A DNA stretch of 64,000 bases from a virus (lineage: Duplodnaviria; Heunggongvirae; Uroviricota; Caudoviricetes). Of the stretch, positions 1,967 to 56,143 are shown one piece after another; within the stretch, counting starts at the first letter, position 1, and each line of letters begins with the position of its first letter. The stretch lies in IMG/VR virus record IMGVR_UViG_2571042690_000019, one strand, 5' to 3'. The notes under the pieces are model-generated. The model had not been told where the DNA came from, did not search any database, and saw only the letters and a list, made by a program, of their open reading frames with translations. The position numbers and the translations under genes were made by a program.

Positions 1967-4257
1967 TTCATTATTGCAATTATATCGTTAGCAACTACAC
2001 GTTTTGACGCCTTGCAGGACACCGACCGTCTGGCTGCCATATGATGTACTTTAAACCCGTTTCCTTCATATAGTTCACGGATGTTTGGCGCACCACTATT
2101 TGTTATCACTACCTTAGCGCCGCGCTGGTGGGCTTCCACCAATAGAGATACCAGCCGTTTCTGTTCGTCGAAACGGAAGCTATTTCCTGAATAACTGGTA
2201 AACCCTTCTGTATCCGGCAGCGGTTCATACGGCGGATCGCAAAAAATCACATCGCCTTCACCAGCCGCCTCGATGACGCCAGCAAAGTCACCTGATACAA
2301 AGGACGTGTTTTTGAGTACGTCATCAGCCAAAAATGCCTCCATCTCTGCATGTGGGAAGTAGGGCGCTTTGTATTTGCCATACCCCACGTTGAACTCGCC
2401 ATTTTGGTTGTACCGCGTTACGCCATTAAAACAGTGCCGATTAAGGTACAAAAAGGCGGCAGCATGATGTAGCTGGTCATACTCTCCTCTGTTAAATGCC
2501 TCACGCACTTCGAGGTAAGCGTCAGCGTTGTTGTAATTTTGGAAAAAACTATATGACAGCGTGACGAGCGAATGTCCTTCTCGCTGCAATGTCTGATAGA
2601 AGTTAATCAGGTCACCGTTAATATCATTAAGCAGGTTGTGGCGAAATCCTGCATTCGTAAATACAGAACCGCCACCAACGAACGGTTCTATTAACCGCTT
2701 GCCGTGTGGTAGATGCTCAAGCACTGTAGGCAACTCTGAGAATTTACCGCCTACCCATTTGAAGATCGGACGCTCATATTCATCCGGAGTCCGGAGTTTT
2801 CTTGTGTAGGTAATGGTATTTATTTTTTTTGGCTGTTTAGCTTCCACAGTCGCAAGAATGCGACACCCAATCCATTGCATAACAGGAACTGCCATGCTGT
2901 TGCCAATCGCTTTGTAACGCGGCCCGTCAGCAGCGAGCATCGCGGCCTCTTCTTCGCTTAAATCTGGATAGTGATTGCGAAGGTATGCCAGTTCATCTGA
3001 GGAAATTGTTTTACGCTTTTCCGTAGGGATCAACGTATGCCCATCAGGAAAACCTTGCAGCCTTTCACATTCGACAGGGGTAAGACGGCGGACAGCTACT
3101 TCTGCGTTTCTTACTTCATAGCAAACGGCTGTTGGATTTTGAGCCATTAGAGATGGTGAAGTATTCTTAGTTGCAGCATGTTGTGTACCGCTCATACGCT
3201 CAGGAAAAGCTAATGTAACAAGATGCTCATGGCTTTCTTGCTCACGCGCCCGCAATGTACCATGCCCCTCTGACCAAAAACCTGCTCCTGTGCTGCTAAA
3301 AACGGCAAGGTCAGTGGCATCTTTAAAGTCTCTTGCCTTTACTGTCGATGCGGTTTCATCGTCAATATATTCCCCAAATGCCGCCATCCTGAAAGCGTTT
3401 ACGGCTTTCGTCGATTTCATACCGGGGGGCATGTCAGCGTGTAGGCATGGATTTAGGCTTTCGCCACTGATTGCAGCGCCATTTGCAATAATGGCGGAAG
3501 CGATTTCCTTCTTTTTTCGGCTCGGCGCAATATTCCGGCGCACGCCTTCGAACTCAAAAAGTATCGTTGCGGGATCGAGGTCTGTTCGAGCACTTGCGAC
3601 AACAAACACGCGTCGGCGTCGTTGCGCCACTCCGAAGTATTGGGCATCAAGGATTCTCCAGGCCACTTTTCGCTGCGGTCCATAAATACAACCACACTGC
3701 GGCCACTTTGGAGCATGGCAACTGGTTTTGACATCCCACCGCCAGAACGCGTTACTTTTTCGCGATTCAGGTCGAGCACCTGGTTCGAATGGCGCATCTT
3801 CTCCAGCCAATCCGGCAAGGAAACATCCGAAGGCGTTATCTGCCGATGACAAGACTCCTGGGACATTTTCCCAGACGATAACGGCTGGTTTGAGAAATGA
3901 CTCAGCCCGTTTGTCGTCAATTGCATTTGCAAGCTCCACATACTTTAAAGTTAGCGCGCCACGCTCATCATCAAGCCCACCACGTAATCCAGCGATACTG
4001 AATGCCTGACAAGGTGTTCCCCCGACGAGCACATCAGGGGATTCGATTTCCCCAGCCAGGACTTTTTTGGCAAGTTTTGTCATATCGCCAAGGTTGGCGA
4101 CATGGGGCCAGCGGTGCGCAAGAACGGCAGATGGAAAAGGCTCGATTTCAGCAAACCACGCCGGACGCATACCCAACGGTTCCCAGGCAATGCTCGCTGC
4201 TTCAATTCCACTGCAAACTGAACCATATCTAAGGTTAACGTTCTGCTTCACCACCAA
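1963..4257 (-). CDS. dmt: bifunctional DNA methyltransferase: N-terminal C5-cytosine MTase fused to C-terminal Dam-like N6-adenine MTase
   Basis: N-terminal part has [12 protein letters not shown] (PC motif), ENVPG and C-terminal RLQGFPD C5-MTase motifs; C-terminal ~280 aa align with E. coli Dam ([19 protein letters not shown]). Symbol by analogy to the P1 hrdC-dmt pair; domain order relative to P1 Dmt not verified. Confidence 0.8.
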
Positions 4258-14106: not shown

Positions 14107-14414
14107 ACACCTTTAACCACGGAGATGCCGTTCCCTGCACGATAGCTGCGGGGAACGGAATTCTCCATCAGGTCACGAATTACTCCCGCCTCATGTAGTT
14201 CCTCTGTTTCCCAGTATCTGTTTGTCACCAGATCCAGGCTGGCTATGACCTTGTGCCGGTCATTCGGCATAGCCAATTTTTCTGCTATAACCATCAGTGA
14301 AAACTCTTCATCCAGTAGGATTTGATACCAGACTTTTGCCAGTTCCAACTCTCTAATGAGGGTGAAGCGCCGCTCAAGTGTGGCGGCAGAATAAGTGAAA
14401 TCTATTTTTTTCAT
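14103..14414 (-). CDS. hypothetical protein
   Basis: 103-aa ORF. Confidence 0.4.
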   Translation of the reverse strand: MKKIDFTYSAATLERRFTLIRELELAKVWYQILLDEEFSLMVIAEKLAMPNDRHKVIASLDLVTNRYWETEELHEAGVIRDLMENSVPRSYRAGNGISVVKGV

Positions 14415-14473
14415 CGTGCGGATAATCCGATTATTTGGCAGTTAAATCCCCGGCGTCGCCGGGGATGCAGCAT

Positions 14474-15652
14474 TTAACTAACAATCCAGTCCATAGCAAT
14501 AACATCCTCTGGAGCTAAATCAATAGCATGGATTTTCCCGTCACGGATGGTGCGCCAGTGCTTTCGTGATCCACCTTCGGGCCACACCCATATACCTTCA
14601 GGCCAGGAAGAACGACGACACACTGTTGCGTATCCAGTCCTGATCTTCTCTCTGACGGTATGTAGTGACAGATTATCCTTTGGGCTTTCAGGCACAGGAT
14701 GGTGGATTGCCTGAAACATCCCCATCTTTGGATGATACCAGCGTTTATTGCGTGGTTCTGCCTCCGACATCACCTGCTTAAAGGCTTTCCGGAAGGGGGC
14801 ACGTGATCCACCTTCGGGCCACACCCATATACCTTCAGGCCAGGAAGAACGACGACACACTGTTGCGTATCCAGTCCTGATCTTCTCTCTGACGGTATGT
14901 AGTGACAGATTATCCTTTGGGCTTTCAGGCACAGGATGGTGGATTGCCTGAAACATCCCCATCTTTGGATGATACCAGCGTTTATTGCGTGGTTCTGCCT
15001 CCGACATCACCTGCTTAAAGGCTTTCCGGAAGGGGGCCAGGGCCACAATGGAACGTCGCGCAAGCAAACCGTCGGGAGTTAAAAACTCATGCGTATCTGT
15101 GGGGATCCGGTAAGCGTTGACCAGGTTGCGGCATTTGGCTTCAGTCAGGCCGCATTTCGCCGCTAACTGGCGATAGCCAATGTAGCCTTCCGGAATATTG
15201 CCTTTCTTTATTTGCTCGACGGTTTCAGCGACTTTGGTCACTTGTGCCGATACTTCGGCTACCTGGGCATTAACGGCGTTGATCCGGCGTTCATGCTCAA
15301 GATGCATTTGCGCCATTTCAGCCAGAATTTCGGCTTTTGATTTTAACTGTACCCGGGCATTCTCCAGTTCGCGCCAGCGGTCCACCAGCCGGGCGGTGAA
15401 TTCGGGAGAGAGCTGCGCGACGACGACAATACTATCGCGCTTGCCTTGCTCGCCTTCGAAGAAATAGGCTTTTGTGTATTTATTAGGGCTAAGTGATTGA
15501 TTATTCTCAACTGTAGCCAATGGCGTATGTTGGATAACTCCTTTAGCAACAAGTCTTTCGATGCTGCGTTTAACATCAGAGTGACGACTTCCCACCAGTT
15601 CCGCGATCTCAATGCTGGTCATTGTCGCTTTTTGAGAGATGGACAGATTCAT
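14474..15652 (-). CDS. phage antirepressor-like protein (Rha/Ant family) fused to a C-terminal domain; contains a 79-codon in-frame tandem duplication
   Basis: N-terminal SIEIAELVGSRHSDVKRSIERL and central region homologous to ORF 54851..55558; C-terminus homologous to separate ORF 54654..54854. Confidence 0.7.
   Translation of the reverse strand: MNLSISQKATMTSIEIAELVGSRHSDVKRSIERLVAKGVIQHTPLATVENNQSLSPNKYTKAYFFEGEQGKRDSIVVVAQLSPEFTARLVDRWRELENARVQLKSKAEILAEMAQMHLEHERRINAVNAQVAEVSAQVTKVAETVEQIKKGNIPEGYIGYRQLAAKCGLTEAKCRNLVNAYRIPTDTHEFLTPDGLLARRSIVALAPFRKAFKQVMSEAEPRNKRWYHPKMGMFQAIHHPVPESPKDNLSLHTVREKIRTGYATVCRRSSWPEGIWVWPEGGSRAPFRKAFKQVMSEAEPRNKRWYHPKMGMFQAIHHPVPESPKDNLSLHTVREKIRTGYATVCRRSSWPEGIWVWPEGGSRKHWRTIRDGKIHAIDLAPEDVIAMDWIVS
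14565..15038. repeat. exact tandem duplication, 2 x 237 bp, inside the antirepressor gene
   Basis: two consecutive identical 237-nt units; peptide APFRKAFKQV...WPEGGSR repeated twice in the ORF. Confidence 0.9.
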
Positions 15653-15867
15653 CAGTGCACCTCCACGCAGTTCATTGGCAGATTCCAGTAATTGAGGATC
15701 TCCATCGCATCAAGAGTGAAGCGAGCAGCAAAAATGCAGGGTTCTTCGGGAAGGTATGAGCGCGCCTCTGCTTCGGTAGCAGCCATTACGCAGATATAAA
15801 GGTGTTTTTGGCAGGAATAGAAACGCCAGATAAATTCAGAATGAGTTGGGGTAGGGATAGTAGCCAT
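15652..15867 (-). CDS. small protein upstream of antirepressor (position of P1 icd)
   Basis: 71 aa, strong AAGGAGG RBS, stop overlaps antirepressor start; paralog of ORF 55558..55782. Confidence 0.55.
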   Translation of the reverse strand: MATIPTPTHSEFIWRFYSCQKHLYICVMAATEAEARSYLPEEPCIFAARFTLDAMEILNYWNLPMNCVEVH

Positions 15868-16183
15868 ATTGGCAGCCTCCTTTGACTAAGTTAAGGAGCT
15901 ACCGCGTGAGGTTCCAATCTCAATGGCGGTAGCACTGACTGGGTTGGAACTACCGGCGTCAAAGGGAACCGGCCTGCCTTTCGGCAGCCCAGCCAGCACT
16001 ACCATTGATCTCTGAGCTAAACGCTAAGTATGGCTGTGCGATGGCATGACACAAAAAAAGACGCGTTCGGCGTCTGTGTCGCCTTTGACATTATCCGGGG
16101 TTCCAATCCCGGCACCCGTTTTTCTAAGGTGCCGTAGAAATATACCCCACGATAATGCCATGGCGCAACAGTCAGTATTTTAT

Positions 16184-16350
16184 GCTTTGGCGGATTTCTT
16201 CCGGGCTTGCTTGCAGGCGTAGGCCATTGCTTTAGCTTTCACTTCATCCAGCTTCCCGGTGATCACTTCTTTTCCGAGAGTGACAAACCAGTCATAGCAA
16301 CCGCCAGTAATGTTCTTGATTTGAAAGTTGAGGTAGCGAACAGTCATTTT
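16184..16350 (-). CDS. possible small protein (55 aa)
   Basis: manual translation MTVRYLNFQIKNITGGCYDWFVTLGKEVITGKLDEVKAKAMAYACKQARKKSAKA with upstream GGGGG RBS-like run. Confidence 0.25.
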
Positions 16351-16667
16351 GACACCCCCAGCGCGAGTAAAGAATGCAGATTATCGCGTGAGTGGTGGAC
16401 GACGAGTGATGGGAAAAGACTGTAGTTGTTCATAGTGTAGTGACTCCTTGCTTTCGGAGCCGCCATTGACTGTTCCACGGTCTGGTGGCGGCGCAATAAA
16501 GGCTGGAACACCGTGAGTCAACGGGGGCTTTTCAGCCACCTATATTGCACCGCCATAGGTATAGCGGCGGCAATAATACGAAAAACTAAACAGTTTGTCT
16601 CAAAAAGTTGACCGGTGTGCCAATCGGTAGTGAATGTACATCGGGGAAATTTACAATTCAACTTAAA

Positions 16668-16682
16668 ATGTTAGAAAACTAA
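16668..16682 (-). promoter_or_regulatory. operator-like motif TTAGTTTTCTAACAT
   Basis: member of dispersed conserved motif family. Confidence 0.4.
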
Positions 16683-17257
16683 TTTATCAATTCAATCGCC
16701 ATCTGATACAACGCCATTTCATCGGCATTGTGCCGTATGAAATCTGCTTTTCCGCCTATTTTTCCATCAGCATGAACAGGGACCAGCCAGGGATATTGTT
16801 CTCGGACCTCGGCTGGCGCTGCGTACTGGTGGTGCCATTTACACAAAGGGAGGACATATTTATGCGCGTTCTCTGCCGTTCTCCCGAAGATATGGTGCAG
16901 GGATACTACTGGGCTATGTTGCCCGTGAATATGGCAGGCAATGCAGGGGAGAGTACCGATAGCGGTCTGTATCCGGCGTTCATCGGCTGTGAGTGATCTG
17001 CCCTTCAGGCCGCGTGACGTGCGTGTTTTTTTGGGCGGAGCGGATACAGCTTTATCTTTTCTCCGCTGTTCATATTGCTTTGCTTTTTCAATTTTCTTTT
17101 GCCGATATTCAGGCGATGCGGCTTTTTCTCTCGCTCGCTGCTGCTGGCGTTGAGCTTGTTGAAGGCGCTTTGCCCTTTGTTCCTCTCGCCAGGCCGGGTC
17201 AGCCAATTTTTGCATGGCTTTTTGTCTCTGTTTCTCCCAATAACTCTGTTTCTGCAT
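16679..17257 (-). CDS. ref: Ref-like HNH-type protein (basic disordered N-terminus plus His/Cys-rich C-terminal domain)
   Basis: 192 aa; N-terminal 95 aa Lys/Arg/Gln-rich; C-terminal LPCIACHIHGQH...LHHIFGR...CKWHHQ; matches the described architecture of P1 Ref, no sequence alignment available. Confidence 0.5.
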   Translation of the reverse strand: MQKQSYWEKQRQKAMQKLADPAWREEQRAKRLQQAQRQQQRAREKAASPEYRQKKIEKAKQYEQRRKDKAVSAPPKKTRTSRGLKGRSLTADERRIQTAIGTLPCIACHIHGQHSPVVSLHHIFGRTAENAHKYVLPLCKWHHQYAAPAEVREQYPWLVPVHADGKIGGKADFIRHNADEMALYQMAIELIN

Positions 17258-17323
17258 GATGGCAGTCTCTTACTTTTCAACGATTTTTCTATGATTGATC
17301 AAAATGGTTAGATATTCAAAATT

Positions 17324-17337
17324 GATTTTCTAACATA
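17324..17337 (+). promoter_or_regulatory. operator-like motif GATTTTCTAACATA between divergent ref and plus-strand operon
   Basis: dispersed conserved motif followed by TAATAT. Confidence 0.45.
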
Positions 17338-17374
17338 AAACATTAATATCATTCCTGATAACTGTTTGGAGGAC

Positions 17375-17530
17375 ATGATGCTTATAGCTTTAAGTGCGAT
17401 CCACCAGCCATCTGTGAATGAGATTGGCCTGTTCTATGTGTTGGTTTTCGGGGCGTTGGCGCTACTTGAGCTTGGTATTGAGCTTTTCGCAGTGCTTATG
17501 TTTTGCGTCACGATTCTGGGGAAATTTTGA
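17375..17530 (+). CDS. small hydrophobic protein (51 aa)
   Basis: GGAGG RBS 4 nt upstream of ATG; MMLIALSAIHQPSVNEIGLFYVLVFGALALLELGIELFAVLMFCVTILGKF; stop overlaps next start (ATGA-type). Confidence 0.4.
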   Translation: MMLIALSAIHQPSVNEIGLFYVLVFGALALLELGIELFAVLMFCVTILGKF

Positions 17531-40796: not shown

Positions 40797-40872
40797 TGGT
40801 GGCCCCTACCGGACTTGAACCGGTGACCGTGCGATTATGAGTCGCCAGCTCTAACCACTGAGCTAAGGGGCC
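40797..40872 (-). tRNA. tRNA-Ile (anticodon CAU, ileX-like) or tRNA-Met
   Basis: GGCCCCTTAGCTCAGTGGTTAGAGC...CTCATAA...GGTTCAAGTCC...GGGGCCACCA; cloverleaf folds; near-identical to E. coli ileX as recalled. Confidence 0.75.
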
Positions 40873-40881
40873 AATTAGTTT

Positions 40882-40995
40882 TTATTTTCGACGCCTGAGA
40901 TTCTTCGCTACTTGTTCTACTCCGTATACGATCACAAGCAGAAATAGCAAAGACCATCCAGGGTTCTTATCAATATACGTCCAAAAATCCATCAT
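40882..40995 (-). CDS. possible small membrane peptide (36 aa)
   Basis: manual translation MMDFWTYIDKNPGWSLLFLLVIVYGVEQVAKNLRRRK; ATGA overlap with upstream ORF. Confidence 0.25.
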   Translation of the reverse strand: MMDFWTYIDKNPGWSLLFLLVIVYGVEQVAKNLRRRK

Positions 40996-41156
40996 GAGTT
41001 CCTGAACGCAGCTTTAATAATCGGCAATAGCAATACCACAGCTACTGAAACCAGTGCCCCATCAGCCAACACCGACATCACTTTGCTGGTGAAATCCACC
41101 AGCACGGACAAAACGAGAAAACCAATGGCGCACGCAATACGCGCCTTGCCAATCAT
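40992..41156 (-). CDS. possible small membrane peptide (52 aa)
   Basis: manual translation MIGKARIACAIGFLVLSVLVDFTSKVMSVLADGALVSVAVVLLPIIKAAFRNS; TAATG overlap with TerB-like gene stop. Confidence 0.35.
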   Translation of the reverse strand: MIGKARIACAIGFLVLSVLVDFTSKVMSVLADGALVSVAVVLLLPIIKAAFRNS

Positions 41157-41590
41157 TACAGATAATCTTCCACACGAAGGCCCAAACGACGGCCTACTTC
41201 TTCCAGTACTTTGTGTTCTGCTGGCTCGATTTCACCGTCCGCTTCTGCAATCGTCAGCATGTTAACGAATACTTCTTCCGCTTCTTTTGGATCATTTTTG
41301 ATATCTTCAATTTCGCGAAGGATATTCATGCGACCAACACGGAAACCAGCTTCCAGTTGCTCAGTAAAACGGGTGATTGTTGCGGTAATTTCGTTGCCAA
41401 AATGACTTAAGCGAGGATTAGAGCGGACAAGCTGATCAAGTTTCGCTGTTTCTTCCTTTTCGATTTCACCATCTGCGGCAGACACCAACAAACAGCCACC
41501 GATAATGGCCTCCATCAGATCGCGATTCTCAACCCTTTTCAGCTCTACTTTTGCTGAAGCGACTTTCTTACCGAAAAATTTACCGAACAT
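41156..41590 (-). CDS. TerB-like protein (tellurite-resistance TerB fold; P1 tciA-like)
   Basis: 144 aa with repeated ADGEIE-type acidic motifs; located in the tRNA cluster as tciA is in P1. Confidence 0.5.
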   Translation of the reverse strand: MFGKFFGKKVASAKVELKRVENRDLMEAIIGGCLLVSAADGEIEKEETAKLDQLVRSNPRLSHFGNEITATITRFTEQLEAGFRVGRMNILREIEDIKNDPKEAEEVFVNMLTIAEADGEIEPAEHKVLEEVGRRLGLRVEDYL

Positions 41591-41857
41591 TGGTTATCCC
41601 TCAATAAACATGACGTATTTATTAGGTTGCGGTGCCTGGTGCCTCCAGGTGACGTTAACCAGTTAACAATTAACGCCGGGATGTTTGACTTAACCACTAA
41701 GGAGGATTGTTTTAACTGTTCCGCGTGCGCATAGCCGCATTCACCGCAATGGTAAGAGCACTTGGCTGGCTGGGCGGCGATGACGCCTGTACGCATTTGG
41801 TGATCCGGTTCTGCTTCCGGCATTCGCTTAATTAGCCAAATACTCTTAACGTTGCAC

Positions 41858-41944
41858 TGGCGGAGAGTAATGGAATCGAACCATCATCGCTTGCGCAATG
41901 GGACGGTTTTCAAGACCGTTTGAGCACCATGCTCCCTACTCTCC
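41858..41944 (-). tRNA. tRNA-like gene, possibly tRNA-Ser (anticodon UGA), non-canonical A8
   Basis: 7-bp acceptor stem, anticodon arm ACGGT-CTTGAAA-ACCGT similar to E. coli serT, long variable arm, TTCGATT T-loop, 3' CCA; D-arm atypical. Confidence 0.35.
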
Positions 41945-42277
41945 AGTGATTGTGATGGTCGGTGCTGAACTCCGACACAGGGTTGTAGCAAGCCCCGCAA
42001 AGCGCGCACTACTGTAGTTGCGGCACATCAGCCTGTGCATTCACCACAATGTTGAGAACACTGGTTGTCACGCTGCAACGCAACATTTATTCGTAGATTG
42101 GGATATGACCCCGTTACGCCAGTGTTCTCAACGTTATAGTGCCGGTTACGGTTCCGGCCAGGCCTCTTCCTCAACGGGGTGTTCTCCATACGGACTACCG
42201 TTTATTGGTCGTTCCTGCGGTTTATGTTGTGAAGCCAGATGCTTATCTTCTGGTTGCTTCAAAGAGCTGCACTTCAT

Positions 42278-42345
42278 CACAACGGTAAGAGCACTCGATG
42301 CATTTAAGCCAAGCCCCATAAGGGAGAATGCCCTTACCTGTTGTG
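42278..42345. repeat. conserved-stem hairpin element (CACAACGGTAAGAGCAC ... GCCCTTACCTGTTGTG)
   Basis: imperfect inverted repeat sharing stem consensus with elements at 42474..42560 and 42917..42991. Confidence 0.5.
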
Positions 42346-42473
42346 TTGTGATGACCGGTGCTGATCTCCGGCTTGCGGTTATTTCAGACTCTCACGGGCG
42401 TTTAATTGCCCCGCCGAACAGCTCTTTTCCGCAATAGCTGCAATGTCTTTCGCGCATCAGCCTGCGCATTCAT

Positions 42474-42560
42474 CACAACGGTAAGGGTACTTCGTAGGGA
42501 TTCGAACCCTCTGCCAAGCTCGGCGATCTCCGACGTCGCAAAATACCCTTACCTGTTGTG
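42474..42560. repeat. conserved-stem hairpin element enclosing a tRNA-like T-arm fragment (GGGATTCGAACCC)
   Basis: CACAACGGTAAGGGTAC ... TACCCTTACCTGTTGTG inverted repeat, immediately downstream of tRNA-Thr on the minus strand. Confidence 0.5.
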
Positions 42561-42561
42561 C

Positions 42562-42637
42562 TGGTGCCGATTAACGGACTCGAACCGCTGACATCCTGCT
42601 TACAAGGCAGGCGCTCTACCAACTGAGCTAAACCGGC
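42562..42637 (-). tRNA. tRNA-Thr (anticodon UGU)
   Basis: GCCGGTTTAGCTCAGTTGGTAGAGC...CTTGTAA...GGTTCGAGTCC...CGGCACCA cloverleaf. Confidence 0.8.
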
Positions 42638-42639
42638 AT

Positions 42640-42715
42640 TGGCGATGGTGGATGGATTTGAACCATCGACCCGTTGATTAACAGTCAACCGCTCTAACCG
42701 CTGAGCTACACCATC
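42640..42715 (-). tRNA. tRNA-Asn (anticodon GUU)
   Basis: GATGGTGTAGCTCAGCGGTTAGAGC...CTGTTAA...GGTTCAAATCC...CACCATCGCCA cloverleaf. Confidence 0.8.
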
Positions 42716-54653: not shown

Positions 54654-54854
54654 TCAAGTCACGATCCAATCATTACCGACTATATCAGCCGTCGATAAAT
54701 CAACTTCCCGGATCTGGAGTCCATTAATACAAAACCATCCGGTAGTAGAGTAATTATCAGGCCAGGCCCATACACCAACACTCCATGCTTTACGGCGGCA
54801 CACTTCAGCCTGTCCTTCCCTGATTTTTTTTACCGCCTGCATGATGTCCATCAC
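54654..54854 (-). CDS. small protein homologous to the C-terminal domain of antirepressor 14474..15652
   Basis: CRRKAWSVGVWAWPDN...DWIVT aligns with CRRSSWPEGIWVWPEG...DWIVS. Confidence 0.5.
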   Translation of the reverse strand: MMDIMQAVKKIREGQAEVCRRKAWSVGVWAWPDNYSTTGWFCINGLQIREVDLSTADIVGNDWIVT

Positions 54855-55558
54855 TCACCTCCCCAACCGATCACCTGGAATTGCCCCATTTTGGGGTGAT
54901 ACCAGCGTTTTCCTCGGTGTTCAGCCTCCGACATCATCCGGTTAAAAGAATTCATGAAGGGAGATAAGGCCACGATGGAACGACGCGACAATACCCCCTC
55001 TGGAGTTAAAAACTCATGTGTATCGGTGGGAATCCGGAAAGCGTTAACCAGGTTGCGGCATTTGGCTTCGGTCAGGCCACATTTCGCCGCCAGCTGGCGG
55101 TAGCCAATGTAACCTTCCGGCATATTGCCCTTCTTGATTTGCTCGACGGTTTCAGCGACCTGGCTAACCTTTGACTCAACAGCATGAAGCCGCTTTTGCT
55201 GCTGAACTGCATTTGCAGCCATTGCGGCGATCATCTCTATTTCGGTCAACGGCTGGCGTACTTGTTCTTCCAGTTCGCGCCAGCGGTCCACCAGCCGGGC
55301 AGTAAACTCAGGACAAAGCTGTGCGACTACAATGATACTGTCTCGTTTGCCTTGCTCGTCGCTAAATCGGAACACCTGAATTAATCGAGAACGCCCCATT
55401 ACATCTATTTTTGGTTCATCCTCAATTTGAGGACGAACAATAACGCCGGATTCGGCTAATGTTTCAATGGTACGCTTCACATTGTCATGACGTTTTCCCA
55501 CCAGCTCCGCGATCTCAATGCTGGTCATTGATGGCTTTTCAAGAATGCAGATATCCAT
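54851..55558 (-). CDS. phage antirepressor-like protein (Rha/Ant family)
   Basis: MTSIEIAELVGKRHDNVKRTIETL and central region homologous to 14474..15652; start set at internal Met overlapping upstream stop. Confidence 0.65.
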   Translation of the reverse strand: MDICILEKPSMTSIEIAELVGKRHDNVKRTIETLAESGVIVRPQIEDEPKIDVMGRSRLIQVFRFSDEQGKRDSIIVVAQLCPEFTARLVDRWRELEEQVRQPLTEIEMIAAMAANAVQQQKRLHAVESKVSQVAETVEQIKKGNMPEGYIGYRQLAAKCGLTEAKCRNLVNAFRIPTDTHEFLTPEGVLSRRSIVALSPFMNSFNRMMSEAEHRGKRWYHPKMGQFQVIGWGGE

Positions 55559-55782
55559 CAGTGTGCCTCCGCAATGCCGGGATTGGTAATATTGCGATAC
55601 CAAGGATTAGTGTTTGGTTGTGGGGAAGTAGAGAAACGACCAGTAAGAACACCATGCTGATCAGGGATCAGAGAACGGGCTTCTTTTTCGGTTGCGGCAA
55701 TTGCGAAGTGATCGCAGTGTTTTTGCAGGGAGTGGAAACGCCAGATGAATTCTGGACGTGAGCAAGGATTGGCATTAACCAT
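55558..55782 (-). CDS. small protein upstream of antirepressor (paralog of 15652..15867)
   Basis: shared EFIWRF..S.QKH...AATE.EARS segments. Confidence 0.5.
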   Translation of the reverse strand: MVNANPCSRPEFIWRFHSLQKHCDHFAIAATEKEARSLIPDQHGVLTGRFSTSPQPNTNPWYRNITNPGIAEAH

Positions 55783-56128
55783 AGTTACGGCCTCACTAAC
55801 AGGTTTAACAACCTGCTACCCGCTGTCAAACAGGTGGCAGGACGTGACAGGGTTGACAGACTGGCGTTAGTGAAACCAGCAGGCCGAAGCCTCCCCATCA
55901 CGCCCCACCATAATTCGGGCGTAACGTGGTTTACGGACACAAAAATACCGCAATATCGGAAATCTGCGGTTGTCCGCACTAACATTCAGGCTGTCAAACC
56001 TGGTCGCAGAATTTGCTACGACGGCATGAATATAAGCCTGAAAACATGGAAGATCAACTAAAAATTTCAGCAATGGATGACTTCAGTCGATGATGCAGAT
56101 CATACATTCCGATTTAGAAACAGCAAAT

Positions 56129-56143
56129 TAATTTTCTAACATA
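56129..56143 (+). promoter_or_regulatory. operator-like motif TAATTTTCTAACATA
   Basis: dispersed conserved motif. Confidence 0.4.

What the first reader, a model, noticed from the sequence alone, without database searches (positions are those of the whole stretch)
15868..16180. Structured leader upstream of the small-protein/antirepressor operon: candidate antisense-RNA control region
The ~300 bp before the strong RBS of gene 15652..15867 contain an 8-bp-stem hairpin (15898..15933) and further GC-rich stems but no convincing ORF. In P1 the equivalent leader encodes the c4 antisense RNA that blocks icd-ant translation; a comparable regulatory RNA here is plausible but unproven.
Basis: inference. 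Interest (0 to 1): 0.45.

Follow-up and report, generated by a model that had tools for sequence, protein, structure and literature searches.

The report
C4 antisense RNA gating an antirepressor

Summary
The observation and the interpretation both hold. The window is a D6-like, P1-family phage-plasmid, and the genes concerned lie on the minus strand. The leader 15868-16180 contains two RNA elements that pass Rfam's curated thresholds. One is a C4 antisense RNA (15922-16009, 77 bits, threshold 45). The other, upstream, is an IsrK-type leader (16054-16132, 61 bits, threshold 50) ending in an intrinsic terminator.

C4's two recognition elements, a' GUUCCAA and b' CCUUUGAC, are exactly complementary to two site pairs. 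a2/b2 lie downstream, with b2 covering the Shine-Dalgarno sequence of an Icd-like gene that overlaps a Rha-type antirepressor gene. a1/b1 lie inside the IsrK-like leader.

In 32 distinct related leaders these pairings are kept in 99.8-100% of cells, and 9 of 15 pairs change on both sides. At least nine specificity types exist.

The window also holds the true P1 immI orthologue at 55.8 kb, with a different specificity. A third C4-like RNA at 16481-16560 falls below the Rfam threshold. A second c4-icd region in D6-like plasmids has already been noted in print (PMC6799933). Main finding: already known, low-to-moderate interest. No expression or functional data were available.

The parts
16139..16168 (-). 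Inferred sigma-70 promoter of the leader: -35 TTGCGC (16168-16163), 18-nt spacer, -10 TATATT (16144-16139), predicted start near G16132.
   Evidence: Read from the sequence. The -10 hexamer keeps a fixed distance from the IsrK 5' end in three diverged backgrounds (TATATT or TATGCT; alignment). The generic promoter scan did not report it, so this part is inferred.
16054..16132 (-). IsrK-type leader RNA carrying target copies a1 and b1 and ending in an intrinsic terminator.
   Evidence: Rfam RF01394 isrK, 61.3 bits (threshold 50), E = 1.1e-10, full-length model match. It also gives a weak c4-a1b1 match (RF03163, 22.4 bits, below threshold).
16100..16106 (-). Site a1 (UUGGAAC), lying in the 8-nt loop AUUGGAAC of hairpin CCGGG/CCCGG. 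It is complementary to a' of C4.
   Evidence: The a1-a' pairing holds in 99.6% of cells, and 5 of 7 pairs change on both sides across 32 leaders.
16082..16089 (-). Site b1 (GUCAAAGG), complementary to the b' loop of C4.
   Evidence: The b1-b' pairing holds in 100% of cells, and 4 of 8 pairs change on both sides.
16052..16075 (-). Intrinsic terminator of the IsrK-type RNA: AGACGCCGAACGCGUCU followed by U7.
   Evidence: Terminator scan and the 3' hairpin of the Rfam isrK model.
15922..16009 (-). C4 antisense RNA gene. By alignment to the annotated 77-nt P1 c4, the mature RNA is predicted at about 16003-15925 (79 nt).
   Evidence: Rfam RF01695, 77.1 bits (threshold 45), E = 2.4e-13. Fold z = -5.0. 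The structure is paired in 99.8% of cells, with 13 of 27 pairs changed on both sides. P1 c4 coordinates come from the AF234172 annotation.
15958..15965 (-). b' (CCUUUGAC), in the 12-nt loop of the second C4 hairpin.
15944..15950 (-). a' (GUUCCAA), in the single-stranded junction between hairpin 2 and the closing stem of C4.
15898..15933 (-). Its 5' arm is the 3' strand of the C4 closing stem, so the two folds exclude each other. Its loop, with an inner UGAG/CUCA stem, displays a2.
   Evidence: It is 97.3% paired in 32 leaders, with one compensatory U-A to C-G change that tracks the C4 stem. Analogous hairpins with other sequences follow the P1-type and third C4-like RNAs.
15911..15917 (-). Site a2 (UUGGAAC), a target of a'.
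   Evidence: The a'-a2 pairing holds in 100% of cells, and 5 of 7 pairs change on both sides.
15877..15886 (-). Site b2 (GUCAAAGG, 15886-15879), overlapping the Shine-Dalgarno sequence AAGGAGG (15883-15877) of the icd-like gene.
   Evidence: The b'-b2 pairing holds in 100% of cells, and 4 of 8 pairs change on both sides. The cognate duplex energies sum to -23.0 kcal/mol.
15652..15867 (-). icd-like gene (71 aa). Its stop overlaps the ant start (UGAUG at 15652).
   Evidence: NCBIfam NF033153 phage_ICD_like, 49.4 bits (cut-off 25). phrog_1426, E = 3.7e-41. 54% identity to P1 Icd.
14474..15652 (-). Antirepressor-type gene (392 aa, Rha N-terminal domain). It contains a perfect 237-bp in-frame tandem duplication at 14565-15037.
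   Evidence: phrog_63 'anti-repressor Ant', E = 4.6e-63. Pfam Phage_pRha. 61% identity to the Ant of the 55-kb locus. No similarity to P1 Ant1. Duplication.
16481..16560 (-). Related element upstream, outside the finding: a third, diverged C4-like RNA. Its own a2 (UGGAACA, 16477-16471) follows it, and its b2 (GAGUCA, 16446-16441) overlaps the Shine-Dalgarno sequence of a 29-aa ORF (16344-16433). That ORF is followed by a 55-aa ORF (16180-16347).
   Evidence: Rfam C4 at 40.2 bits, below the threshold of 45, E = 1.1e-5 in a 2-kb search. Fold z = -4.6. The core is invariant in 20 distinct relatives whose flanks diverge. In plasmids pHX138.33gt_1 and S. dysenteriae 204/96 it precedes a 61-aa Icd-like gene.
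16668..16685 (+). Operator-like motif ATGTTAGAAAACTAATTT just upstream of, and almost abutting, the predicted promoter of the third C4-like element (-35 TTGAAT, -10 TACATT). It is a candidate D6-type C1 operator.
   Evidence: The motif occurs 9 times in the window against 0.36 expected. One copy sits where P1 has operator Oc4. The motif and the promoter hexamers are conserved in relatives.
55830..55915 (-). Second complete system in the window, the true P1 immI orthologue. It has a C4 RNA with a different specificity (a' CUGUCAA, b' UCACUAAC) and an a1b1 leader at 55983-56035. Downstream are icd (55558-55782) and ant (54851-55558).
   Evidence: Rfam C4 at 68.8 bits and c4-a1b1 at 54.4 bits. 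89.4% identity to P1 48210-48625. Non-cognate duplex energies with locus A are -8 to -12.5 kcal/mol, against -23 for cognate pairs.

Best explanation
The leader is an immI-type RNA switch of the P1/P7 c4 kind, in a D6-like phage-plasmid.

Shown here:
- A C4-family RNA gene lies between an IsrK-type leader and an icd-like/antirepressor operon.
- C4's two exposed elements are exactly complementary to a2/b2 on the same transcript. They are a' GUUCCAA, in a single-stranded junction, and b' CCUUUGAC, in a hairpin loop. b2 covers the icd Shine-Dalgarno sequence.
- The same elements are also complementary to a1/b1 in the leader.
- All three copies of each site co-vary across relatives.

Inferred from the P1, P7 and Gifsy-1 precedents:
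1. A promoter near 16140-16168 with no operator-like motif nearby, possibly constitutive, starts transcription near 16132.
2. Most transcripts stop at the intrinsic terminator (16075-16052). This yields an ~80-nt IsrK-like RNA that carries a1 and b1.
3. Read-through transcripts are processed to a ~79-nt C4 RNA. In P1, RNase P makes the 5' end.
4. C4 acts in trans. It pairs with a2, which is displayed in the loop of the 15898-15933 hairpin, and with b2. This occludes the icd ribosome-binding site.
5. Without icd translation, the overlapping ant gene (UGAUG) is not expressed. The cause would be loss of translational coupling and probably Rho-dependent polarity.
6. The C1-type repressor therefore stays active, and the prophage stays immune to phages carrying the same a/b code.
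7. The short leader RNA, or the a1/b1 segment in cis, can titrate C4 and so tune or relieve repression.
For: - Rfam matches above the curated thresholds: C4 at 77.1 bits (threshold 45) and isrK at 61.3 bits (threshold 50), both full-length.
- Fold z-scores of -5.0 and -5.8.
- Exact a/b complementarity. The paired motif occurs twice in the leader against 0.01 expected in the window.
- Across 32 distinct leaders, a'-a2 and b'-b2 pair in 100% of 480 cells. Nine of 15 pairs change on both sides. Registers slid by 1-3 columns give only 26-55% pairing.
- a1/b1 pair in 99.8% of cells.
- The C4 fold is paired in 99.8% of cells, with 13 of 27 pairs changed on both sides.
- At least nine a/b specificity types exist, and the a and b types assort independently. 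All four combinations of a-sites UUGAGAC/UUGGAAC with b-sites GCAAAAGG/GUCAAAGG occur. In every case but one (L034) all three copies match.
- The downstream genes are Icd-like and antirepressor-type, joined by a UGAUG overlap.
- The layout matches the P1 immI annotation point for point: a1, b1, c4, a2, then b2 at the icd ribosome-binding site.
- The c4 mechanism in P1/P7 is summarised in PMC12197685 and PMC8546580.
- The IsrK short-form and read-through logic, and the ~80-nt processed RNA STnc1160, are described in PMC4825925.
- The first 60 nt of icd are C-rich and G-poor (C/G = 2.7), which is compatible with a Rho entry site.
Against: - No transcript, processing or reporter data exist for this element. 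Every functional step is taken from relatives.
- The promoter is inferred by eye. The generic promoter scan did not report it.
- The antirepressor is not homologous to P1 Ant1/2. Its target repressor is assumed, not shown.
- A strong terminator lies between the promoter and C4, so the supply of C4 depends on read-through of unknown efficiency.
- The published Gifsy-1 work describes the homologous leader RNA as an activator acting on mRNA structure, and it did not show that the C4-like RNA represses.
- One natural relative (L034) has an a1 that does not match its a'. a1 pairing is therefore not absolutely required.
Confidence: 0.85

Rival explanations
1. IsrK-type activation is the main mode, as published for Gifsy-1. 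In this reading the read-through mRNA folds in cis into a translationally inactive structure, with a1/b1 paired to a'/b' and the 15898-15933 hairpin formed. The short terminated leader RNA acts in trans to open that structure. Translation of a small upstream ORF overlapping the C4 region (the 39-aa frame 15886-16005) then couples into icd and ant. The C4-like segment would be mainly a cis-acting structural element rather than a trans repressor. This reading is not exclusive of the best explanation.
For: - The isrK model matches above threshold and includes the terminator.
- The 39-aa frame is open in all 32 leaders and stops 1 nt before b2.
- In Gifsy-1, IsrK supplied in trans raised anrP translation about 100-fold, and this depended on orf45 translation.
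Against: - Here a bona fide icd-like gene with its own strong Shine-Dalgarno sequence lies between the C4 region and ant. The coupling ORF is therefore icd, as in P1, not an orf45 equivalent.
- The 39-aa product is poorly conserved and matches no protein family.
- The closing stem and tRNA-like end typical of processed C4/CI RNAs are conserved with covariation. That argues for a free, processed RNA.
Confidence: 0.3
2. P4-type transcription-termination control. C4 pairs with a1/b1 on the nascent leader and promotes termination at the 16075-16052 terminator. It would thereby autoregulate read-through into C4-icd-ant, rather than (or as well as) blocking the ribosome-binding site.
For: - b1 ends only 6 nt upstream of the terminator stem.
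- a1/b1 co-vary with a'/b' as strictly as a2/b2 do, so they are under selection for pairing.
- P4 CI RNA works this way through seqA/seqC, as cited in PMC4825925.
Against: - b2 overlaps the Shine-Dalgarno sequence in every relative. A pure termination model would not need that.
- No alternative antiterminator structure was established here.
- In Gifsy-1, constitutive STnc1160 did not reduce the IsrK effect.
Confidence: 0.2
3. The region is protein-coding, or a decaying duplicate. Either the annotated small ORFs are the functional products, or locus A is a redundant, non-functional copy of the immI system at 55.8 kb. The ORFs concerned are the PGAP 'ash family protein' and D6 orf84 on the opposite strand.
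For: ORFs are annotated over this stretch in D6 and in RefSeq plasmids. A second full system exists in the same genome.
Against: - D6 orf84 is not intact in the window.
- The 39-aa frame has no family match, and its protein sequence varies while RNA pairs are kept by double changes.
- Triple covariation of a1/a'/a2 and b1/b'/b2 across at least nine types is not expected of a decaying copy.
- The two systems have orthogonal specificities, so they are not redundant.
Confidence: 0.04

Closest known systems
c4 antisense RNA and the immI operon (c4-icd-ant1/2) of phages P1 and P7
   Same: - The order of parts is the same: promoter, a1, b1, a terminator-like hairpin, C4, a2, b2 at the icd ribosome-binding site, icd, then an overlapping ant.
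- The RNA belongs to the same Rfam family and has the same fold.
- The logic is the same two-site recognition, which sets immunity specificity (PMC12197685).
- The Icd-like protein is 54% identical to P1 Icd.
   Different: - The recognition sequences differ: a UUGGAAC and b GUCAAAGG here, against UUGACAG and GUUAGUGA in P1.
- The leader scores as isrK rather than c4-a1b1.
- The antirepressor is Rha-type and unrelated to Ant1/2.
- The locus sits next to ref, not at the P1 immI position. The real immI orthologue is elsewhere in the window.
- No operator-like motif lies next to its promoter.
IsrK / STnc1160 / orf45-anrP locus of Salmonella prophage Gifsy-1, and the isrK+C4 modules of lambdoid Stx phages
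   Same: - The leader matches the isrK model at 61 bits and includes the terminator.
- A C4-class RNA of about 80 nt lies downstream, followed by an antirepressor-type gene (PMC4825925).
- Stx phage F039 is annotated with both RNAs in the same order.
   Different: In Gifsy-1 and F039 no separate icd gene is annotated between the RNA and the downstream gene, and orf45, which overlaps the C4-like RNA, is the coupling ORF. Here icd is separate, as in P1. DNA identity to the Stx-phage modules is only about 69%.
Second c4/icd region of D6-like plasmid prophages (phage D6, pYU39_89) and of the P1-like phages RCS47 and JL22
   Same: This is the same locus. It is 93-96.5% identical to D6 and 98% identical to E. 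coli plasmid pB2C_96. [quoted passage not shown] The RCS47 copy, between pacB and c1, is 91% identical.
   Different: D6 itself carries another specificity type (a' GUCUCAA, b' CCUUUUGC), and RCS47 carries a' GUCUCAA with the window's b'. No RNA feature is annotated at the matching stretch of the D6, RCS47 or RefSeq plasmid pB2C_96 records. The window's ant has an extra 237-bp duplication.
CI RNA with seqA/seqB/seqC of satellite phage P4
   Same: A processed C4-class RNA is flanked by upstream and downstream complementary copies. The IsrK authors call IsrK a structural homologue of seqA.
   Different: P4 CI acts by premature transcription termination of replication genes, not on an icd/ant ribosome-binding site. 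P4 was not compared by sequence here, so this comparison rests on the description in PMC4825925 and on my own knowledge.

Membership tests
C4 antisense RNA (Rfam RF01695) | Match to the covariance model above the curated gathering score, over the full model length | tested here: met
   77.1 bits against 45, model positions 1-87 of 87, E = 2.4e-13.
C4 antisense RNA (Rfam RF01695) | Fold with a long closing stem enclosing two hairpins, supported by covariation | tested here: met
   The minimum-free-energy fold equals the model fold, z = -5.0. 99.8% of cells are paired, and 13 of 27 pairs change on both sides in 32 leaders.
C4 antisense RNA (Rfam RF01695) | Two exposed elements (a', b') complementary to a2/b2 downstream, with b2 over the ribosome-binding site of the first gene | tested here: met
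   Exact 7-nt and 8-nt complements. b2 overlaps AAGGAGG. 100% of cells are paired and 9 of 15 pairs change on both sides.
C4 antisense RNA (Rfam RF01695) | Upstream duplicate target sites a1/b1 on the same transcript | tested here: met
   a1 at 16106-16100 and b1 at 16089-16082. 99.8% of cells are paired.
C4 antisense RNA (Rfam RF01695) | Processing of a longer precursor (RNase P at the 5' end) to a stable RNA of about 77 nt that represses in trans | not testable with these tools
   Only the tRNA-like closing stem and the ...ACCGCC 3' end can be seen. ARAGORN calls no tRNA here.
IsrK Hfq-binding RNA (Rfam RF01394) | Match above the gathering score, including the 3' intrinsic terminator | tested here: met
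   61.3 bits against 50, model positions 1-77 of 77. Terminator at 16075-16059 plus U7.
IsrK Hfq-binding RNA (Rfam RF01394) | The short form acts in trans to activate translation of its own read-through mRNA; Hfq association | not testable with these tools
   Known only from Gifsy-1 experiments (PMC4825925).
IsrK Hfq-binding RNA (Rfam RF01394) | The downstream coupling ORF (orf45) overlaps the C4-like RNA and leads directly into the antirepressor gene | tested here: inconclusive
   A 39-aa frame is open over C4 in all relatives. Here, however, a separate icd-like gene intervenes and overlaps ant.
c4-a1b1 motif (Rfam RF03163) | Match above the gathering score | tested here: not met
   22.4 bits against 46.7 for locus A. 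The 55.9-kb locus and P1 do meet it, at 54.4 and 51 bits. Locus A's leader does the same job but belongs to the isrK sequence type.
P1 immI operon (c4-icd-ant1/ant2) | icd homologue directly downstream of C4 | tested here: met
   NF033153, 49.4 bits. 54% identity to P1 Icd.
P1 immI operon (c4-icd-ant1/ant2) | Antirepressor homologous to P1 Ant1/Ant2 | tested here: not met
   BLASTP against P1 Ant1 gives E = 0.3. The protein is Rha-type, phrog_63.
P1 immI operon (c4-icd-ant1/ant2) | Same genome position and C1-operator-controlled promoter (Oc4/P51a) plus a constitutive promoter (P51b) | tested here: not met
   Locus A lies next to ref. The P1-orthologous position and sequence belong to the 55.8-kb locus. 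No operator-like motif lies within about 500 bp of locus A's promoter; the nearest is at 16668.

The most novel reading that the evidence does not exclude
The element just upstream (16481-16560) could be a third, functional C4-class antisense RNA of a diverged subtype that current Rfam thresholds miss. It would be driven by a promoter with a C1-operator-like motif abutting its -35 hexamer. It would gate a small-ORF pair through its own a2 and through a b2 that overlaps a Shine-Dalgarno sequence. Transcription from that promoter would run on into the IsrK/C4/icd/ant module.

One phage-plasmid would then carry a three-tier antisense network:
- two orthogonal codes, at loci A and B;
- a third code that shares the a-site core (UGGAAC) with locus A, which would allow limited cross-talk.

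The independent assortment of a and b types across relatives would make this a natural two-key RNA code for immunity.
Probability: 0.4. Interest if true: 0.45.

Novelty: already known. Interest (0 to 1): 0.25.

Why it matters
The practical value lies in annotation and typing rather than discovery.
- D6- and P1-like phage-plasmids are common in E. coli, Salmonella and Shigella. At least 466 plasmid records match this stretch.
- No RNA feature is annotated over this stretch in the D6, RCS47 or RefSeq plasmid pB2C_96 records inspected; instead, doubtful ORFs are called over it in D6 and pB2C_96 ('ash family protein', D6 orf84).
- The a/b site pairs give a readable immunity code, with at least nine types in the small sample examined here. 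That code could be used to predict which phage-plasmids exclude or induce one another.
- One genome carries two orthogonal C4/antirepressor switches. This bears on how polylysogens and superinfecting relatives interact.
- The strict three-way covariation offers natural sets of orthogonal RNA regulators.

Tried and rejected
- A MAFFT alignment that mixed all C4 types (A4) was out of register in the stems. It was not used. A covariance model was built instead from four ungapped locus-A-type sequences and used to collect 96 matches.
- The generic promoter scan found nothing convincing in the leader: 2 hits in 1.8 kb, which is no more than chance. The promoter assignment therefore rests on conserved hexamers and on the 5' end of the IsrK model.
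- Pfam has no model for Icd-like proteins. NCBIfam and PHROGs were needed.
- The protein-coding reading of the 39-aa frame was considered and rejected.
- A tRNA reading was excluded, because ARAGORN finds none here.
- The primary P1 papers (PMC312442, PMC196329) and the D6 genome paper (PMC5800970) are not held in the library. Details of RNase P processing and Rho-dependent polarity in P1 therefore rest on my own knowledge and on secondary sources.
- I checked whether the third C4-like element's a' co-varies with locus A's a type across genomes. It does not: it is GUUCCA everywhere. Any cross-talk in this window is therefore incidental rather than selected.
Full report
**What the window is**

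The stretch 14400-17400 is 93% identical to Escherichia phage D6 (MF356679, 73948-76711). It is 98% identical to E. coli plasmid pB2C_96 and to many other plasmids of about 90 kb that are predicted to be non-mobilizable. The window is therefore a D6-like member of the P1 group of phage-plasmids. All genes discussed here lie on the minus strand. D6 annotates the genes as ref (orf87), orf86, orf85, orf84 (opposite strand), an icd-like gene (orf83) and a putative anti-repressor (orf82). No RNA feature is annotated over this stretch.

**Checking the observation**

The 8-bp hairpin is real. GCUACCGC (15933-15926) pairs with GCGGUAGC (15905-15898). The leader is far more structured than shuffled sequence. 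The 88-nt core has z = -5.0 and the 291-nt leader has z = -5.8, and none of 200 shuffles folds as well in either case. The gene at 15652-15867 is Icd-like (NF033153, 49.4 bits, cut-off 25). The next gene is antirepressor-type (phrog_63, E = 4.6e-63; Pfam Phage_pRha). Its start overlaps the icd stop as UGAUG.

**What the leader contains**

A scan of the whole window against Rfam at curated thresholds gives two hits in the leader.
- C4 antisense RNA (RF01695) at 15922-16009(-), 77.1 bits against a threshold of 45.
- isrK (RF01394) at 16054-16132(-), 61.3 bits against a threshold of 50.

The isrK match ends in an intrinsic terminator, AGACGCCGAACGCGUCU followed by U7. Aligning to the annotated 77-nt c4 of P1 (AF234172) predicts a mature RNA at about 16003-15925.

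I use the P1 names for the sites.
- a' (GUUCCAA, 15950-15944) lies in the single-stranded junction of C4.
- b' (CCUUUGAC, 15965-15958) lies in the loop of its second hairpin.
- a2 (UUGGAAC, 15917-15911) and b2 (GUCAAAGG, 15886-15879) lie downstream. b2 overlaps the Shine-Dalgarno sequence AAGGAGG of icd.
- a1 (16106-16100) and b1 (16089-16082) lie inside the IsrK-type RNA.

The combined motif UUGGAAC-N(10-40)-GUCAAAGG occurs at exactly these two places in 64 kb, against 0.01 expected. This order of parts is, point for point, that of the P1 immI annotation.

Its 5' arm is the 3' strand of the C4 closing stem, so the hairpin and the C4 fold exclude each other. Its loop carries an inner UGAG/CUCA stem that displays a2 in an 8-nt loop, AUUGGAAC. 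The a1 hairpin has the same loop.

In the minimum-free-energy fold of the unprocessed leader, the hairpin forms while a1/b1 pair in cis with a'/b'. It is 97.3% paired in 32 relatives. One compensatory change in it also tracks the C4 stem. Equivalent hairpins with other sequences follow the P1-type C4 and the third C4-like RNA.

**Evidence from relatives**

I used an Icd alignment to collect 80 IMG/VR loci. A covariance model built from four locus-A-type sequences then found 96 C4 matches in all held sequence.

Extracting a', b' and their best complements gave at least nine specificity types. In every type but one, a1, a' and a2 match each other, and so do b1, b' and b2. The a and b types assort independently. 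All four combinations of a-sites UUGAGAC/UUGGAAC with b-sites GCAAAAGG/GUCAAAGG occur. Phage D6 itself carries a different code from the window.

Formal counts on 32 distinct leaders (alignment A7):

| Pairing | Cells paired | Pairs changed on both sides | Slid-register control |
|---|---|---|---|
| a'-a2 and b'-b2 | 100% of 480 | 9 of 15 | 26-55% |
| a1-a' and b1-b' | 99.8% | 9 of 15 | 33-57% |
| C4 fold | 99.8% | 13 of 27 | 22-53% |

These sequences are related, so the shuffle control overstates significance. The slid-register control and the repeated independent double changes do not depend on that. One natural recombinant (L034) has an a1 that does not match its a'.

**Other C4 loci in the window**

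A second complete system lies at 54.9-56.0 kb.
- It comprises a c4-a1b1 leader (54.4 bits), C4 (68.8 bits), icd (74 aa) and ant.
- It is 89.4% identical to P1 48210-48625, so it is the true immI orthologue.
- Its code is the P1 one (UUGACAG / GUUAGUGA).
- Cognate duplex energies are about -23 kcal/mol for each system. The A-B cross pairs reach only -8 to -12.5 kcal/mol, so the two systems are orthogonal.
- The two Ant proteins are 61% identical paralogues. Neither resembles P1 Ant1.

Locus A, the finding, is a separate module.
- It is shared at 91% identity with P1-like phage RCS47, where it lies between pacB and c1 behind a P1-type C1 operator.
- It is also shared with JL22, and at about 69% identity with lambdoid Stx phages. 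One of these is annotated 'isrK Hfq binding RNA' followed by 'C4 antisense RNA'.
- The shared block starts at about window 16175, which is the finding's upstream boundary.

**How it most likely works**

What is shown: the parts, their complementarity and their co-evolution. What is inferred comes from P1/P7 and from Gifsy-1. In P1/P7, c4 RNA blocks ant expression by pairing around the ribosome-binding site and sets heteroimmunity (PMC12197685, PMC8546580). In Gifsy-1, short IsrK and a read-through mRNA come from one promoter, an ~80-nt RNA is processed from the read-through, and translation is coupled into the antirepressor gene (PMC4825925).

1. A promoter (-35 TTGCGC at 16168-16163; -10 TATATT at 16144-16139) starts transcription near 16132. 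The -10 hexamer is conserved in three diverged backgrounds.
2. Most transcripts end at the terminator as an IsrK-like RNA bearing a1/b1.
3. Read-through transcripts are processed to C4.
4. C4 in trans pairs with a2/b2 and blocks icd translation. Through the UGAUG overlap, and probably through Rho, this blocks ant as well. The first 60 nt of icd have C/G = 2.7.
5. The leader RNA, or the a1/b1 segment in cis, competes for C4.

Two variants cannot be separated with these tools and may coexist. One is IsrK-style activation. The other is P4-style control of the leader terminator by C4.

**Comparison with what is known, and novelty**

The element passes the sequence and structure definitions of RF01695 and RF01394.
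- It fails RF03163 (22.4 bits against 46.7), although it does the same job.
- It is not the P1 immI operon itself. The ant family is different, the genome position is different, and there is no adjacent operator-like motif.

I therefore rate the main finding as already known.

**Seen beyond the finding**

- **Third C4-like RNA.** Upstream, at 16481-16560, lies a third C4-like RNA that scores 40.2 bits, just under threshold.
  - It has fold z = -4.6.
  - Its core is invariant in 20 distinct relatives whose flanks diverge strongly. The few changes it shows are consistent with the structure: U.U, U.G and C-G at one pair, and U.G and C-G at another.
  - It has its own a2 (UGGAACA). Its b2 (GAGUCA) overlaps the Shine-Dalgarno sequence of a 29-aa ORF.
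  - In two plasmids the same RNA precedes a 61-aa Icd-like gene.
  - An operator-like motif abuts the -35 hexamer of its predicted promoter.
- **Operator-like motif.** ATGTTAGAAAAYYAATTT occurs 9 times in the window against 0.36 expected. One copy lies at the position of P1 operator Oc4 and another lies upstream of ref.
- **Duplication in ant.** The ant gene of locus A carries a perfect 237-bp in-frame duplication that the relatives examined lack.

**Limits**

No expression, processing or genetic data were available. The promoter is inferred. The primary P1 and D6 papers could not be read.

Noticed in passing
window 54851-56142 (minus strand): A second complete c4-a1b1 / C4 / icd / ant system lies here. 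It is 89% identical to P1 immI, uses the P1 recognition code, and is orthogonal to the system in the finding. An operator-like motif (56125-56142) lies where P1 has Oc4.
   Followed up: partly
window 16481-16560 (minus strand), with flanks 16430-16690: A third C4-like RNA scores just below the Rfam threshold (40.2 bits against 45). Its core is invariant in 20 relatives, and it has its own a2 and a b2 that overlaps a Shine-Dalgarno sequence. It lies upstream of a 29-aa and a 55-aa ORF. In two other plasmids it precedes an Icd-like gene.
   Followed up: partly
window 14565-15037: The antirepressor gene carries a perfect 237-bp (79-codon) in-frame tandem duplication, 2.0 copies at 100% identity. 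D6 and the best-matching plasmid relatives lack it. It is either a recent duplication or an assembly artefact.
   Followed up: partly
window 5167, 16668, 17319, 22572, 33501, 34911, 45180, 56125, 57331: The 18-nt motif ATGTTAGAAAAYYAATTT occurs 9 times with up to 3 mismatches, against 0.36 expected. Copies lie upstream of ref, at the third C4-like promoter and at the P1 Oc4-equivalent position. It is a candidate operator of the D6-type C1 repressor.
   Followed up: partly
window 15886-16005 (minus) and the opposite strand around 15923-16222: Public records call ORFs over the RNA genes: PGAP's 'ash family protein' and D6 orf84. The orf84 frame is broken in the window. The 39-aa frame stays open in all relatives, but its protein sequence is poorly conserved and it matches no family.
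   Followed up: yes
locus L034 (IMGVR_UViG_2778261639_000014), about 931-1208: This is a natural recombinant. Its a1 is UUGAGAC, while its a' and a2 are of the GUUCCAA/UUGGAAC type. It is the only leader in the sample with a mismatched upstream site.
   Followed up: no
window 40797-42715 (minus strand): Four tRNA genes (Met-CAT, Ser-TGA, Thr-TGT, Asn-GTT) lie here. The same set is reported for the D6-like plasmid pYU39_89.
   Followed up: no
locus L004 (phage RCS47, FO818745) 2453-3031: The P1-like phage RCS47 carries the same isrK+C4+icd module between pacB and c1. A P1-type C1 operator sequence (TTGCTCTAATAAATTG) lies just upstream. Nothing between pacB and ant (neither the RNAs nor the icd-like gene) is annotated in that record.
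   Followed up: partly
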